This document shows, piece by piece, positions 34,210-46,175 of a DNA stretch of 57,047 nucleotides. Under the pieces are notes generated by a model. The model saw only the letters and a list, made by a program, of their open reading frames with translations, searched no databases and was not told the origin of the DNA. The DNA lies in IMG/VR virus record IMGVR_UViG_3300018080_000022, positions 1-57,047 of that record; one strand, written 5' to 3'. The DNA is from a virus. Taxonomy: Duplodnaviria; Caudoviricetes. Every line of letters begins with the position of its first letter. Position 1 is the first letter of the stretch. Position numbers and translations under genes: made by a program.

Positions 34210-34272
34210 ATGTCTCTCGCCGTGCCTCGTAGGCGAGGCAAGGCTGGCGACGCAGTTGTTCTGCGAACAACT
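34210..34272 (+). ncRNA. Repeated structured RNA motif (ATGTCTCTC...TGGCGACGC), copy 1
   Basis: Homologous, covarying copies at 38369-38620 and 46070-46175 on the minus strand. Confidence 0.6.
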
Positions 34273-34284
34273 TAGGAGGTTATC

Positions 34285-34659
34285 ATGTCGGTAAAAAACG
34301 AGCTCGACCGGCTTAAGAAAGCCTACGAAGAAATCAAGAACGACGACGAGGCGAAGGCAATCTTCGAAGAGGCGAAGCAAATCATCGACGGCTTTCTCGC
34401 CAAGGGCGACGACGATATCGAGAGCAAGCTGACCGGCTACGCCGACGTGGACGAAACGCTCGTCCTCACGAGCAAGGGCGCGAAGGTGCGAAAAGCCTAC
34501 GTCGCCCGAGTCAAGGCGATACATTTTCTCACAAGCGCGTTGCAGCTAATCTCGAAGTACACGCCGGTCTTGAATGAGGCCGTGGATGCGGCGAAGGAAC
34601 TCACCAAGAGCGCGAAATCGGCGGCGAAGAAGAGTCTGTCCCGGAGGAAGAAGAAATAA
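34285..34659 (+). CDS. Hypothetical helical protein
   Basis: AGGAGG RBS. Confidence 0.65.
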   Translation: MSVKNELDRLKKAYEEIKNDDEAKAIFEEAKQIIDGFLAKGDDDIESKLTGYADVDETLVLTSKGAKVRKAYVARVKAIHFLTSALQLISKYTPVLNEAVDAAKELTKSAKSAAKKSLSRRKKK

Positions 34660-37600
34660 ATGGAAAGCCCGACGAAATTGCATGGCATACACGTTACCAG
34701 CGACCCGTCGCCGGTATACGACGTGCTACGCAAGGGCTCCGATATTTCCAAGGGCCGGGCGGCTGGCAAGGTCGGCGACCTCGGCAGTTCCGGCCTCTAC
34801 TTCAGCCAGGTTCCTCAGTTATGGACTGGCCGGGCCTATGACAAGTGGAACTTTCTCGTAAGCTTGTCGAAAAAGAAACGCGCCGAGCTCGCCGATAAAC
34901 TGATGAAGGAACTGCGCGAGGAACGCGATGCCAGGTACATCAGCAAGTTCGAGCTCGAAGCCGCACTTAACTACATAGATAGTTATGTTGAACATGACAG
35001 TCCACATGCAATAGTGATGCTTGCGGGCCAGCCGTATAACATAGCGTTCTGGAAGCAGGAATGGTTAAAGCCCCTCGGGATAAAGCAGACGAAGCCACCG
35101 ATGGAAATCCCGGTCGAGGCGGAAGGCTTGTTCGCAGACCTCACGAACAAGAGTGTTTCGCCTGAACTGATAGCGGAATTGAAGGCGCAGGGGTATGACG
35201 GCGCTTACCATCGCGGCGACATGATTAACTTGCCGCAGAGCGTCGTATGGAACACGAAGGCAATTAAGCGGTTTGGAGACCTGGTGATGAAGGCTAATCC
35301 GAAAAAAGGCAAGCGCTCCAAAAAATACCTCGAAGAGCTTATCGACTATGGCGGCGAGCTTCGCACCAGGGGCAGTATCATCAAGGAGCTTCAGAAGCAA
35401 GGCGTTCCACAGAAATACATAGACGCATACATGATGGGCGCGAAGACGGTCGATAATCCGGGGTATCTCCCTATATTCGCGGCGGGGATAGCTTCAGGCA
35501 TCGCCAGCGGTGCGGCGTTCGCAGTCACGGCAAATTATCTCAAGGAGCGGAAGATGAAAAATCCCGAAAAATCTTTCAAAAAAATGGCGATAAGGCTGCT
35601 TCCCCAGGAGGGATACCTCTTGTACGCGGCATACATGTCGCATTACACGGGGCGGGAAGGATACTGGCCGGACTATTACATGGCCGAAGGGGAGTTTTCC
35701 GAGGAGCCGATGACAGAGATTTGGGAAGTTCCGATAGACCTCGCCGTCAAGCTTCAGGCCCAGGGAACGTCTCAGCAGTTCTTCGGCGACGGCTACGAAG
35801 CCTACAGCGCGCTCCTGAAAGCAGGCAAAAAAGCTAATCCGGGATATGCCGACAACCCGATACAGATAACGCTCCATCGCGGCAGCTACCCGACGATGAT
35901 AAGCTCCGAGGTTGCGAGCATTCTTCGCGCTGGCAGGCGCGGAACCATGAAGCCATCCGACTACAAGGCAATTCTGCGGGCCGAGTACAAGAACATTGGC
36001 CGCGGCGGCGGGTATTCCTCGGGCGATATCTACAAACGCAGAGACGGCATGATGACGCTCGAAGAAATCTTTAACAGCGAGATAGGAGCCTTCATCCTGC
36101 GCGTGAAACGCGAAACCGCCAGCAATCCGCAGTATGCCCCTCTCACCGATGAGCAGATAGCCATCCTAAAAGAAGCCCATGCGAGAGGAAAAGCGGAAGC
36201 CCGCAACTCCGCAACACGTATATTTATCAACGGACAGAACTACAACGCATCTACGGGAGAAGTCCTGCCAAAAGGCATCAATGTAATGTACCAAATGGTG
36301 TATTGGGATTTCACTCGCGATACCGCGAAAATGCTCAAAAAGTTTGTGCAAGACAACAATCCCGGCCAGAAAGTGACCATGAATTACCAGGCCGGTACGG
36401 CCAGCAATGCGGGACATGTTAAAAACTCTCAAGACCCTACAAAACAGGAAATGGTGCGTTTTCTGAAAAAGCAATACAAGGGCCTCATGGACGCATCAGA
36501 TATCAAGACCGAAGGCGAGATAGCTATTTACTGGTTTGCTAACCATTATCATGGCGGTCAATGGACTAACCTGTATTCGGTGTTAAGCACGAGCCCATAT
36601 AGTCCGGGGCCTATTACCACGCTCGAAAGCGAAGGCGACGCCGTTAAGATGATGTATGAAGACCTGGTAGAAGAGTTCGGGGGCACCGCCAGCAATCCCG
36701 AGAAGCCCGGCGTAGTCTGGCCCGTGGGTGCGAAGTTATATGATGGCCGGGGAAAGCCGGTGGGCGTATGTCTCGATACGCCGAACGCAATCGCCAAAGC
36801 CATGATGGAACACCCGGAGGTGCAAGTCGCACATACCCTTCTCGGGGTCAAATCGCGGGCGGAATACGCGAGTCGGATGCAGCCCTGGAATAAAGCTAAA
36901 AGCCATTTCCGCGCGATGGAAAGCAACCCCGAAGGCTATTATGGCTGGAAGAACTACGAGACGTGGAACGTGTCTCTTTGGATGCAGAATGACGAGTTCT
37001 GGCATGATGTAGCCATTTACTCCCCCAATTACAAGCGCTTCAAGGATGCTATGATAGGCCGTCACGGGATAACAGAGACTCCGGACGGCGTAAAGCTGCG
37101 AAGCACGAAGCTCGACCGTAAGGCGCTTGACAAGCTCATTCTCGACCTCGGGGGCGGCAAGGAAGCAATACGAAAGCGCCGAGATGAGGCCGCAAGAAAA
37201 CGTATCAGAAAACACAAGGAAGCCGGGAAGTTTGCGCTTATAAGGGATAACAAGGTTCTCTTCGAGGGCACGGAGAATGAATGCCTTGTTTTTCTACAAA
37301 GACACCAAGGCCAGTCATGGGACTACGCCTTCAGGTACGGCGGATACAAGCTCATTCCCATAAAAGACCTTCCGTCAGGTGTTATCCGAATACCGAAGGG
37401 AATGACCGAGACCGGCTTCGCATACAACCCGCAGAACACTCCCTGGGGCAGGGCTCAGAGCCAGCGCAAGCTCGCAAAGGGCGTTACATGGGTGTCTACG
37501 GCGAGCCACGGTGGGATGATGGTCTCCGAAGGCTTCGCCAAAAGACATTTAAGCAAAGAGGCCCGGAAACGCGCCGAGAAATACGGCAAATACTACTGCT

Positions 37601-45413: not shown

Positions 45414-45758
45414 TCATTTCTTCTTTTTTGCCTTTTCTTCTCTTTTCTTCTTGCTGTCGAGGTCGAACCATCCCGTGCCATAACAGGATGGGCACGGCTC
45501 CGCGGAGTCGGGCCTGAAGCCGCTGCCCTTGCACGCCGGGCACTTCACGCGCGGACTGTCCGCTACCCCGCTCATCACGAGCTCGCTTGCCGCCATCAGG
45601 CGCGTATGCTTGTCCACGAGAACATGCCTGCGCCCGCAGTTAGTGCACTCAAGCACGGCCCTTTCGAGGCCCACTATAAAGTTGAACGAACTACTCGTGC
45701 AGCCCGGTTCCTCGCAATACTGTCTCGCAAGGCCGTCTTTTCCAATCACGCCTATCAT
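45414..45758 (-). CDS. Zinc-finger protein with DnaJ-type CxxCxGxG repeats
   Basis: CPACKGSG and CPSCYGTG. Confidence 0.65.
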   Translation of the reverse strand: MIGVIGKDGLARQYCEEPGCTSSSFNFIVGLERAVLECTNCGRRHVLVDKHTRLMAASELVMSGVADSPRVKCPACKGSGFRPDSAEPCPSCYGTGWFDLDSKKKREEKAKKKK

Positions 45759-46057
45759 TCCCCCTCCGTTTTCTCGGGCTCAACCATCTTGAAAAATCCC
45801 AACTCTACTGCGGCATCTACGATTTTCCGGACATTCTTCGGCCTCGTGTTGTTGGCCTGTCTCGCCACAGCCTCCTTGTAGCAGGCGTTGCAGATGTCGA
45901 ACTCGCCGTCCTCGTCCGGCGCAAGCTCAAGGCCGGTCTCGTCGAGGTTGTCGTCGCCGTCGTAGCGTTCGACGACAAAGCTTATCCCCCAATACGAATC
46001 GAGCTTGCCGTTCCGGCGAATCTTCTTGCCGCAGCAATCGCATTTAATCGTTATCAT
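45755..46057 (-). CDS. Small CDxC...ICxxC zinc-finger protein
   Basis: IKCDCCGK...DICNAC. Confidence 0.6.
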   Translation of the reverse strand: MITIKCDCCGKKIRRNGKLDSYWGISFVVERYDGDDNLDETGLELAPDEDGEFDICNACYKEAVARQANNTRPKNVRKIVDAAVELGFFKMVEPEKTEGE

Positions 46058-46069
46058 GTTACCCCTCCA

Positions 46070-46175
46070 CGTTGCCTTTGGCAACGGCGTCGCCAGCCGG
46101 GCGGTTTTTACCGCCTGCCCCCGCCAGTCTTTTCTGCGCAGCAGAAACGACGAGAGGGTTCACGGCGAGAGACAT
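46070..46175 (-). ncRNA. Nested double copy of the structured motif
   Basis: ATGTCTCTCGCCG...CCCTCTCGTC...GACTGGCGGGG...CGGCTGGCGACGC. Confidence 0.6.

What the first reader, a model, noticed from the sequence alone, without database searches (positions are those of the whole stretch)
34210..46175. Repeated, nestable structured RNA motif ATGTCTCTC-stem-TGGCGACGC at three loci
Seen: copies at 34210-34272 (+), 38565-38620 (-), 38369-38540 (-) and 46070-46175 (-). Each locus is on the locally transcribed strand and begins just after a stop codon. The core is GTC-TCTC-GYC...GRC-TGGC-GAC, a fixed UCUC/UGGC internal loop flanked by helices, with a variable apical stem and a downstream hairpin. Stems covary (AGTTGTTC/GAACAACT vs AGTTGCTC/GAGCAACT; outer GTC/GAC vs CCC/GGG). 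At 46070 one copy is nested in the loop of another. Inference: a protein-binding or processing RNA element that I cannot match to a family I know.
Basis: partly seen in the sequence, partly recalled or inferred. Interest (0 to 1): 0.8.

Follow-up and report, generated by a model that had tools for sequence, protein, structure and literature searches.

The report
Mobile double-hairpin repeat in a phage
The phage carries several copies of a small two-hairpin repeat with a fixed sequence at its base; the same repeat occurs in other phages and in distant bacteria, behaves like a tiny jumping element, and matches no catalogued RNA family.

Summary
The window is a complete 57-kb phage. It holds 5 exact ATGTCTCTCG (0.08 expected) paired with CTGGCGACGC or CTGGCGGGGG.

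Each unit has a 3-bp foot, a UCUC/UGGC internal loop, a variable hairpin, then G(C) and a second variable hairpin. Two loci are composites with one unit nested inside another.

A metagenome scan and a covariance model gave 54 matches (44 distinct). Of the paired cells, 97.5% form standard pairs against 67.9% in shuffles, and 12 of 15 pairs change on both sides. Rfam 15 has no match.

The element looks like mobile DNA:
- A collinear relative phage lacks it at all three homologous junctions.
- It forms tandem arrays.
- It sits in a ribosomal RNA operon spacer and inside a tRNA pseudogene.
- In one bacterium a ~69-nt copy lies antisense and in frame inside a protein gene, and 7 of 7 homologs lack that segment.

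My best reading (about 0.5) is a new REP/MITE/RPE-like non-autonomous double-hairpin element that the phage co-transcribes. An RNA processing or stability role, or an intrinsic RNA activity, is not excluded.

The parts
34210..34253 (+). Unit U1, hairpin A: AU-GUC / UCUC / variable hairpin with a G.A mismatch at its 4th pair / UGGC / GAC-GC
   Evidence: covariance model hit of 46.6 bits. It starts 2-9 nt after a same-strand stop codon.
34254..34272 (+). U1 second hairpin (P3), AGTTGTTC-TGC-GAACAACT. It is followed by the ribosome-binding site TAGGAGG and the start at 34285.
38584..38620 (-). Unit U2, hairpin A, directly after the TAG stop of the D12-class DNA methyltransferase gene (38623-39576)
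   Evidence: 39.6 bits
38565..38583 (-). U2 second hairpin (P3), AGTTGCTC-TGT-GAGCAACT. It differs from the U1 P3 by a compensatory pair change.
38386..38540 (-). Composite locus. It holds an outer 5' half (38540-38531) and an inner unit (38492-38419, foot GUC/GGG, branched top). It also holds the inner P3 (38416-38396) and the outer 3' half CUGGCGACGC (38395-38386). This is the least clean copy.
38369..38385 (-). Outer P3 of the composite (GGTGAAT-TCC-ATTCACC)
38341..38364 (.). Terminator-like hairpin between the convergent gene blocks, just downstream of the repeat cluster. It is not part of the repeat.
39715..39759 (-). Unit U4 (new here): CCC / UCUC / hairpin / UGGC / GGG, in the 240-nt gap upstream of the methyltransferase gene
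   Evidence: 35.0 bits
39697..39713 (-). U4 second hairpin, AGGCGG-CAAGA-CCGCCT. The same hairpin family follows the other two GGG-ending inner units.
46087..46175 (-). Composite: the outer GUC/GAC unit, whose variable stem (GCCG/CGGC) encloses the inner unit and its P3. The stop TAA of gene 46175-46855 overlaps its first bases.
   Evidence: the minimum-energy fold equals the nested fold
46120..46158 (-). Inner CCC/GGG unit of the composite
   Evidence: 59.8 bits
46100..46115 (-). Inner P3, GGCGG-TAAAAA-CCGCC
46070..46086 (-). Outer P3, CGTTGCC-AAA-GGCAACG, followed by the ribosome-binding site GGAGGGG and the start at 46057

Best explanation
The copies are members of a previously uncatalogued family of small (about 60-110 nt) non-coding, non-autonomous mobile repeats built from two adjacent hairpins. 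The constant part is the foot of the first hairpin: a 3-bp stem (GUC/GAC, CUC/GAG or CCC/GGG), then U.C, C-G, U.G and C.U, then a G or GC. I take this foot to be the recognition site of a trans-acting host or phage enzyme that copies or moves the element, probably on single-stranded DNA. The tops of both hairpins are free to vary as long as they pair. The element lands in short spacers, in the top of another copy (giving nested composites), in tandem, and occasionally inside genes. In this phage it sits between cistrons and in a 3' end, and is transcribed with the operons. There it folds into very stable hairpins that may incidentally protect mRNA ends. SHOWN: the structure and its covariation, absence from Rfam, insertion/deletion polymorphism, tandem and nested forms, and one in-frame antisense copy inside a gene. 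INFERRED: the DNA-level mechanism, the single-strand intermediate, and the existence of a dedicated enzyme.
For: (1) Insertion/deletion between relatives. The collinear relative phage G001 (about 62-75% nucleotide identity in most aligned segments) has none of the units at the three homologous junctions. At the 46175 junction it has stop codon, ribosome-binding site and start with nothing between, where the window has 107 extra nt. The model finds no hit in G001.
(2) A copy inside a gene. In L235 (=L030) a unit plus P3 lies antisense and in frame inside a CRTAC1/FG-GAP gene, and 7 of 7 aligned homologs lack those 14-23 residues.
(3) A variant unit replaces the variable-loop region of a tRNA-fMet pseudogene copy in L026.
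(4) Head-to-tail arrays with a 70-nt period occur in L189 (4 units, the first nested), L248, L222 and L226.
(5) Copies within one lineage or metagenome share their hairpin tops, while different lineages have unrelated tops on the same foot. Examples are L198/L218/L220/L226/L235 and L189/L203/L222/L230/L250.
(6) Flanking genes in bacterial contigs are unrelated housekeeping genes with no recurrent partner.
(7) Orientation relative to genes is mixed in bacteria. L203 is antisense between two + genes, L235 is antisense in a coding sequence, and L198, L208, L218, L220 and L240 lie opposite to the adjacent Pfam-supported gene.
(8) The unit in the ribosomal RNA operon spacer (5S-unit-tRNA-fMet) is absent from 2 of 2 other genomes of the genus that hold the locus; their spacer is 109 nt instead of 283 nt.
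(9) Composites of the same architecture recur in the window twice and in L243 8405-8535, with the inner unit always right after the first 3-4 pairs of the outer variable stem.
Against: No transposase or other enzyme has been linked to the element. No Y1/RAYT gene (PF01797) was found in the three bacterial assemblies that hold it, though all are incomplete MAGs. No target-site duplication or conserved target is visible at the junctions. Copies inside the window have quite different tops, so they are not recent copies of one master. Related copies differ by compensatory changes (U1 vs U2 P3; L026 vs L207; window 46158 vs L229 977), which means long-term selection on structure rather than decay. 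In the phage contigs most units lie on the transcribed strand, 0-27 nt after a stop codon and 22-49 nt before a ribosome-binding site and start. That fits an RNA role at least as well. A foot that is the same in phages, Rhodobacteraceae and Lentisphaeria is unusual for REP-like repeats, which are lineage-specific.
Confidence: 0.5

Rival explanations
1. It is a cis-acting RNA 'punctuation' element used by the phage. A conserved endoribonuclease (RNase III- or RNase E-type) would cut at or next to the foot. The upstream mRNA would then end in hairpin A and the downstream mRNA would begin with P3, giving segment-specific mRNA stability. It would work like the RNase III sites between phage T7 genes (comparison recalled, not tested).
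For: In the window, 7 of 7 units lie on the strand of the flanking genes. In phage contigs the typical layout is stop codon, unit, P3, ribosome-binding site, start. Some ribosome-binding sites lie in or next to P3 (L229 6406, L232 3134). The element also occurs inside stable-RNA transcripts: after 5S rRNA and abutting tRNA-fMet, and as an array 15 nt before tRNA-Lys. The invariant U.G pair would be A.C on the other strand, so the structure is strand-specific. The hairpins are stable.
Against: The relative phage G001 manages without any unit at the same junctions. Antisense and in-gene copies exist. The foot is conserved in sequence across phyla, whereas RNase III sites need no fixed sequence (established knowledge, recalled). 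There are no RNA data.
Confidence: 0.2
2. It is a small catalytic or otherwise self-sufficient RNA (a new self-cleaving ribozyme class, or a module that acts without a dedicated protein). The fixed foot would then be conserved by chemistry and not by a co-evolving partner.
For: About 16-18 near-invariant nucleotides sit around variable, covarying stems. The distribution resembles that recalled for hammerhead and twister ribozymes: sporadic, in phages and unrelated bacteria, in tandem arrays, next to tRNAs, and dispensable in close relatives. The same core in units not selected by the search pattern (CUC and CCC types) argues for an intrinsic constraint.
Against: The core is nearly a continuous helix with two pyrimidine-pyrimidine mismatches, with no evident tertiary partner. 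P3 loops and hairpin tops are not conserved. No Rfam ribozyme matches, even weakly. The in-gene antisense copy keeps an intact core where RNA activity of the sense strand is irrelevant.
Confidence: 0.08
3. It is a put-like or nut-like nascent-RNA element that binds the transcribing RNA polymerase and suppresses pausing or termination in phage operons and in stable-RNA operons.
For: The architecture is two adjacent stem-loops of about 65-70 nt with non-canonical pairs, as described for HK022 put RNA (PMC9378689, passages read). In L232 two units diverge from a 45-nt AT-rich spacer, as nut/put sites flank early promoters. The element occurs in an rRNA operon and before tRNAs. A highly conserved partner such as RNA polymerase would explain a foot conserved across phyla.
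Against: No promoter was predicted in the L232 spacer. No unit lies at the window's only divergent junction near 14.6 kb. The cluster at 38620-38369 lies at the very end of an operon, just before a terminator, where antitermination makes no sense. Tandem arrays and in-gene copies are unexplained. There is no sequence likeness to put that I could test.
Confidence: 0.07
4. It is a folded single-strand recombination site analogous to integron attC sites, marking exchangeable gene cassettes in phage genomes.
For: The structural grammar is similar (features of attC recalled): a conserved paired base, an unpaired central spacer, a second helix with a mismatch, and a variable top. The element starts at the stop codon of an ORF with the same orientation as the ORFs. 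In L229, three units separate four small genes within 1.4 kb. Units flank accessory genes such as DNA methyltransferases.
Against: The recalled attC R boxes (RYYYAAC/GTTRRRY) are not present. A 3-bp foot is too short for a recombinase box. No integrase is associated. Genes next to units (the methyltransferase, and the 46175-46855 gene) are present in G001 without units.
Confidence: 0.05

Closest known systems
REP / BIME repeats mobilised by RAYT transposases (Nunvar et al. 2010, PMC2817692; passages read)
   Same: Short imperfect palindromes in intergenic spacers. They occur in many copies and clusters. Palindromic character is kept by compensatory changes, and there is a conserved short sequence at the foot.
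   Different: There is no GT(A/G)G head. Clusters are head-to-tail, not alternating. There are two different hairpins per unit. No RAYT was found in three assemblies. The same foot occurs in phages and in different phyla, and the tops are unrelated between copies within one phage.
Rickettsia palindromic elements (RPE) and other small palindromic insertion elements (ERIC, Correia, MITEs); recalled, no paper read
   Same: Small non-coding palindromic units that can sit in frame inside protein genes and inside RNA genes. They are present or absent between relatives.
   Different: These elements are lineage-specific, usually 100-150 bp with terminal inverted repeats and whole-length similarity between copies. 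Here only about 18 nt of the foot is constant, and the element is shared with phages.
RNase III processing sites between phage T7 genes (recalled)
   Same: Intercistronic hairpins with an internal loop on the transcribed strand of phage operons. They are similar to one another within a genome.
   Different: T7 sites are confined to a phage lineage and are not found as tandem arrays, in bacterial chromosomes or inside genes. Cleavage was not tested here.
HK022 put RNA (Hwang et al. 2022, PMC9378689; passages read)
   Same: About 70 nt, two adjacent stem-loops with non-canonical pairs near the junction, acting in cis on phage transcripts.
   Different: Put lies just downstream of early promoters, is known from about ten lambdoid sequences, and has conserved stems. 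Here the positions are intercistronic or at 3' ends, and the tops are free.
Small self-cleaving ribozymes (hammerhead, twister, pistol, hatchet); distribution recalled
   Same: A conserved core with variable covarying stems. The occurrence is sporadic, multi-copy, and associated with phages and tRNAs.
   Different: No match to any Rfam ribozyme model. No sign of tertiary contacts, and no activity data.

Membership tests
Any Rfam 15 family (4227 models) | Score at or above the family's gathering threshold | tested here: not met
   0 matches on the whole window. At E<=5 or E<=1 on L001, L002, L005, L045, L189 and L232, only rRNA, tRNA and chance hits elsewhere appeared, none on a unit.
REP / RAYT system | GT(A/G)G head directly 5' of a GC-rich imperfect palindrome (PMC2817692) | tested here: not met
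   Units begin (AU)GUC-UCUC, CUC-UCUC or CCC-UCUC. No GTAG or GTGG head is present on either strand.
REP / RAYT system | A RAYT (Y1 transposase) gene in the genome, flanked by two inverted repeats | tested here: inconclusive
   PF01797 was not found in G002, G003 or G004 (0 of 3), while the control found it in 6 of 14 known genomes. All three are incomplete MAGs. No transposase lies near any unit in the contigs held.
REP / RAYT system | Clusters (BIMEs) with alternating orientation | tested here: not met
   Arrays in L189, L248, L222 and L226 are head-to-tail. Only L232 (divergent pair) and L243 4736/4779 show opposite orientations.
Integron attC | R''/R' boxes RYYYAAC ... GTTRRRY at the paired base (consensus recalled, not from a call) | tested here: not met
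   The foot is GUCUCUCG...CUGGCGAC, with no AAC/GTT boxes.
Type III toxin-antitoxin antitoxin RNA arrays (ToxI-like; features recalled) | A tandem RNA repeat array followed by a terminator and an endoribonuclease toxin gene | tested here: not met
   Arrays are followed by tRNA-Lys and aroA (L189/L248), or by unrelated genes. In the window the cluster is followed by a terminator and the end of the convergent gene block.
HK022 put-type antiterminator RNA | Position just downstream of early promoters, and binding to the RNA polymerase beta' zinc-binding domain | not testable with these tools
   The position criterion is mostly not met in the window. Binding cannot be computed. No put model is at hand.
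Self-cleaving ribozyme | Site-specific self-scission in vitro | not testable with these tools
   No RNA run holds the sequence. No known ribozyme model matches.
Structured RNA or single-strand motif (generic) | Base pairs kept through compensatory changes, more than controls | tested here: met
   97.5% of 593 cells pair, against 67.9% in shuffles (0 of 500 reach it). 12 of 15 pairs change on both sides, in 178 cells. Slid controls pair at 31-53%. A perfect P3 of 7 bp or more is present in 19 of 43 flanks, against 0.86 in shuffles.

The most novel reading that the evidence does not exclude
The foot (3-bp stem, U.C, C-G, U.G, C.U, then G) is the active centre of a self-sufficient RNA. It would be a new small self-cleaving or self-ligating ribozyme, or an RNA that docks directly on a universally conserved machine such as RNA polymerase or RNase P. 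The element's spread through phages and several bacterial phyla, its tandem 70-nt arrays and its placement next to tRNAs would then reflect an RNA-based life style (processing into monomers, possibly copied back into DNA).
Probability: 0.1. Interest if true: 0.9.

Novelty: new variant of a known kind. Interest (0 to 1): 0.6.

Why it matters
Small palindromic repeats are usually private to one bacterial lineage. Here the same ~18-nt foot, under hairpins of free sequence, is shared by a group of uncultivated phages, a Roseobacter-group ribosomal RNA operon, a Lentisphaeria genome and other sediment bacteria.

That implies one of two things. Either an unknown, widely distributed enzyme moves hairpin DNA between hosts and phages, or an RNA module exists whose function does not depend on a lineage-specific partner.

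Either way it is a defined, testable motif: a 44-position model with clear score separation (35-60 bits against 14 or less in the window). It is absent from Rfam, and it explains several otherwise odd intergenic spacers in this phage.

It also cautions against reading 'covarying hairpin on the transcribed strand' as proof of an RNA regulator.

Tried and rejected
**Short peptide.** The ATG at the 5' end could start small ORFs, but they are not conserved in length or frame (21 aa in U1, 5 aa in U2, 10 aa in L026; read). CUC- and CCC-type units have no ATG.

**Sigma-54 promoter.** CTGGCGACGCAGTTGC in U2, and the equivalent in the 46175 composite, fit the recalled TGGC-N7-TTGC spacing. The second box is absent in most units, and this reading does not explain the covariation.

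**Sigma-70 promoters next to units.** None was predicted in L232 2800-3400. In the window only unrelated hits appeared.

**tRNA-linked element.** A tRNA lies directly downstream in only 2 lineages among the 39 loci scanned.

**Likeness of the two halves to the antisense of the 5S rRNA 3' end.** The resemblance is partial only, so I dropped it.

**IMG/VR scans with three patterns.**
- 7 hits, none structured.
- 96 matches; 2 passed a loose filter and neither is convincing.
- 119 matches; 3 passed a loose filter and none has a paired foot.

**Genome collection.** Of 26 loci, 3 were structured.

**Pattern scan of 201 genomes of the family of G003.** 95 had matches, which by eye were chance except G003 itself. 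I did not filter them by script.

**Covariance-model scan of 81 genomes of the class of G004.** Nothing was found. Only 78 candidates per genome were scored and the known copy in G004 was itself missed, so this result is uninformative.

**Sequencing runs.** No RNA holder was listed. Contigs of two further DNA runs were identical over the units they covered (pieces 38498-38940 and 39550-40620), with no insertion/deletion.

**Partner genes.** A search for genes specific to the window relative to G001 found several small unknown ORFs, none informative.

**Global alignment of the filled and empty junction.** It was misaligned by the program, so the comparison rests on reading.

**Earlier-findings tool.** It was not open.

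**Literature.** Four searches found no description of this motif. That is a limited search of open-access text only, and supplements were not available.

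
Full report
**What the window is.** The window is a complete IMG/VR phage record of 57,047 bp with direct terminal repeats. Genes run leftward in 1-14.6 kb, rightward in 14.7-38.2 kb and leftward in 38.3-57 kb. Few genes have names. They include a primase/polymerase, a D12-class DNA methyltransferase (38623-39576, minus strand), a 1187-aa protein that I take to be the tape measure from its size and position (my inference; two searches gave only domains of unknown function), and one tRNA-Ser. 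No similar record exists in the GenBank phage collection.

**The observation.**
- ATGTCTCTCG occurs exactly five times, against 0.08 expected; 0 of 100 shuffles reach five.
- Each copy is matched downstream by CTGGCGACGC or CTGGCGGGGG.
It consists of a 3-bp foot, UCUC opposite UGGC, a variable hairpin, then GC, then a second hairpin.
- Within the 'loop', C-G and U.G can pair. The foot is therefore a nearly continuous helix with a U.C and a C.U mismatch.
- The 46175 locus folds, without constraints, into a unit nested inside the variable stem of another unit.
- The 38540 locus has two 5' halves and is a poorer composite. Its nested fold is 12 kcal/mol above the minimum.
- A structure-aware scan and a covariance model added a fourth locus, a CCC/GGG unit at 39759-39715 with its own second hairpin.
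- The model separates the four simple units (59.8, 46.6, 39.6 and 35.0 bits) from everything else in the window (14 bits or less).
- All units lie on the strand of the neighbouring genes.
- Three loci start 0-9 nt after a stop codon, and two are followed by a ribosome-binding site and start right after the second hairpin.

**The family.** Rfam 15 has nothing, either at gathering scores or at E<=1-5 on six loci.

Exact-pattern scans gave the following results.
- Species genomes: 3 structured copies among 26 hits.
- Metagenome contigs: 72 matches in 67 loci, and 35 passed a simple stem test.

A model built from seven gap-free units found 54 matches at E<0.001 in 477 kb, of which 44 are distinct. 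On that alignment 97.5% of cells pair, against 67.9% in shuffles. Twelve of 15 pairs change on both sides, in 178 cells. Slid controls pair at 31-53%.

Three caveats apply. Most members were collected with a pattern that fixes 20 nt of the foot. The alignment is fitted to the model. Some rows are related.

Units not selected by the pattern, found because they lie on the same contigs, show what really varies.
- The foot stem is GUC/GAC, CUC/GAG, CCC/GGG, or once AUCU/AGAU.
- UCUC and UGGC stay fixed, with single exceptions UCCC, UUUC/UUGC and UGUC.
- A second hairpin starts 0-3 nt after the foot. It is perfect and 7 bp or longer in 19 of 43 flanks, against 0.86 in shuffles. By a looser test it is present in 38 of 43.
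- Phage copies share a further signature: G-N-C, then a purine.A mismatch, then U-A.

**Where it occurs.**
- Several metagenome contigs are related phages. They encode proteins 36-84% identical to those of the window and carry 1-5 units each, mostly between cistrons.
- One of these contigs has a composite of the same design as the window's.
- The other contigs are bacterial chromosomes with unrelated housekeeping neighbours.
- In a Roseobacter-group assembly the unit sits in the ribosomal RNA operon between 5S rRNA and tRNA-fMet, with its second hairpin abutting the tRNA.
- In another lineage a four-unit array with a 70-nt period precedes tRNA-Lys.

**Why I read it first as a mobile repeat.**
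- The collinear relative G001 lacks units at all three homologous junctions.
- Two other genomes of the Roseobacter-group genus have a different, shorter 5S-tRNA spacer without the unit.
- Copies from one lineage or metagenome share their hairpin tops, whereas lineages differ completely.
- Arrays are head-to-tail.
- A variant unit replaces the variable-loop region of a tRNA-fMet pseudogene copy.
- Most tellingly, on the Lentisphaeria contig a unit plus second hairpin (about 69 nt) lies antisense and in frame within a CRTAC1/FG-GAP gene. All seven aligned homologs lack those residues.
- In bacteria the orientation relative to genes is mixed.

**What argues the other way.**
- No enzyme has been found. 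No Y1/RAYT gene was detected in three incomplete assemblies, and no transposase lies near any unit.
- No target duplication is visible.
- Related copies differ by compensatory changes, so structure has been kept for a long time.
- In phages the placement (stop codon, unit, hairpin, ribosome-binding site) and the strand are regular.
- The strand regularity could also arise if insertion follows the replication direction and phage genes are co-oriented with replication. That is an inference I could not test.

**Rival readings.** An RNA processing or stability module, a put-like polymerase-binding RNA, a new ribozyme and an attC-like folded recombination site are each weighed in their own sections. 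None can be excluded by computation. No RNA run holds the sequence, and DNA contigs of two other samples are identical over the units they cover.

**Comparison with known systems.**
- It works most like REP/BIME, RPE or MITE-type palindromic repeats.
- It fails the REP definition read in PMC2817692. It has no GT(A/G)G head, no alternating clusters and no RAYT found.
- It resembles HK022 put RNA only in outline (PMC9378689).
- Comparisons with T7 RNase III sites, attC, RPE and ribozyme distributions rest on recall.
- Four open-access text searches found no description of the motif. Supplements were closed.

**Verdict.** The feature is real and reproducible. It extends well beyond this phage and is uncatalogued.

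Noticed in passing
window 38230-38257 (+): A near-consensus sigma-70-like promoter (TTGACA-16-TATACT, 11 of 12) lies right after the stop of the 1187-aa gene. It points into the antisense of the repeat cluster and the methyltransferase gene, so an antisense transcript is possible.
   Followed up: no
window 38341-38364: A hairpin with A-run and T-run flanks sits between the convergent gene blocks. It looks like a bidirectional intrinsic terminator.
   Followed up: partly
window 40719-40759: A GAGGA/CTCCT-type simple repeat inside a gene attracts many unrelated contigs. Depth there is 127 against 14 elsewhere, with many loose ends.
   Followed up: no
window 39640-39672 (-): A long A-rich run (AAAAAAAAAAGAGAAAGAAAA) lies between unit U4 and the methyltransferase start.
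   Followed up: no
window 50880-50963 (-): The phage's single tRNA gene, tRNA-Ser(CGA). No repeat unit lies next to it.
   Followed up: partly
L026 6405-6530 (= L045 1779-1859): A second, degenerate tRNA-fMet copy lies downstream of the intact one. Its variable-loop region is replaced by a ~47-nt segment containing a variant unit (AUCU / UCUC / hairpin / UGUC / AGAU). The Rfam tRNA model scores it at only 20 bits.
   Followed up: partly
L229 9886-10249 (+): ARAGORN calls a tmRNA (tag AKAPMRIAA*) on a phage-like metagenome contig related to the window.
   Followed up: no
L243 5411-7246 and 9506-11707; window 38623-39576; L246 1165-2076: Repeat units repeatedly lie next to DNA methyltransferase genes in this phage group. 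This could be coincidence, or a mark of accessory-gene boundaries.
   Followed up: no
G001 (L016) about 17420-17640 (-): Where the window has the repeat cluster after the methyltransferase gene, the relative phage has a small ORF of about 70 codons and then a terminator.
   Followed up: no
L229 11620-11690 (-): A degenerate unit (UUUC/UUGC in place of UCUC/UGGC) with its second hairpin lies antisense over the 3' end of a radical-SAM-like ORF. It may supply that gene's last codons.
   Followed up: partly
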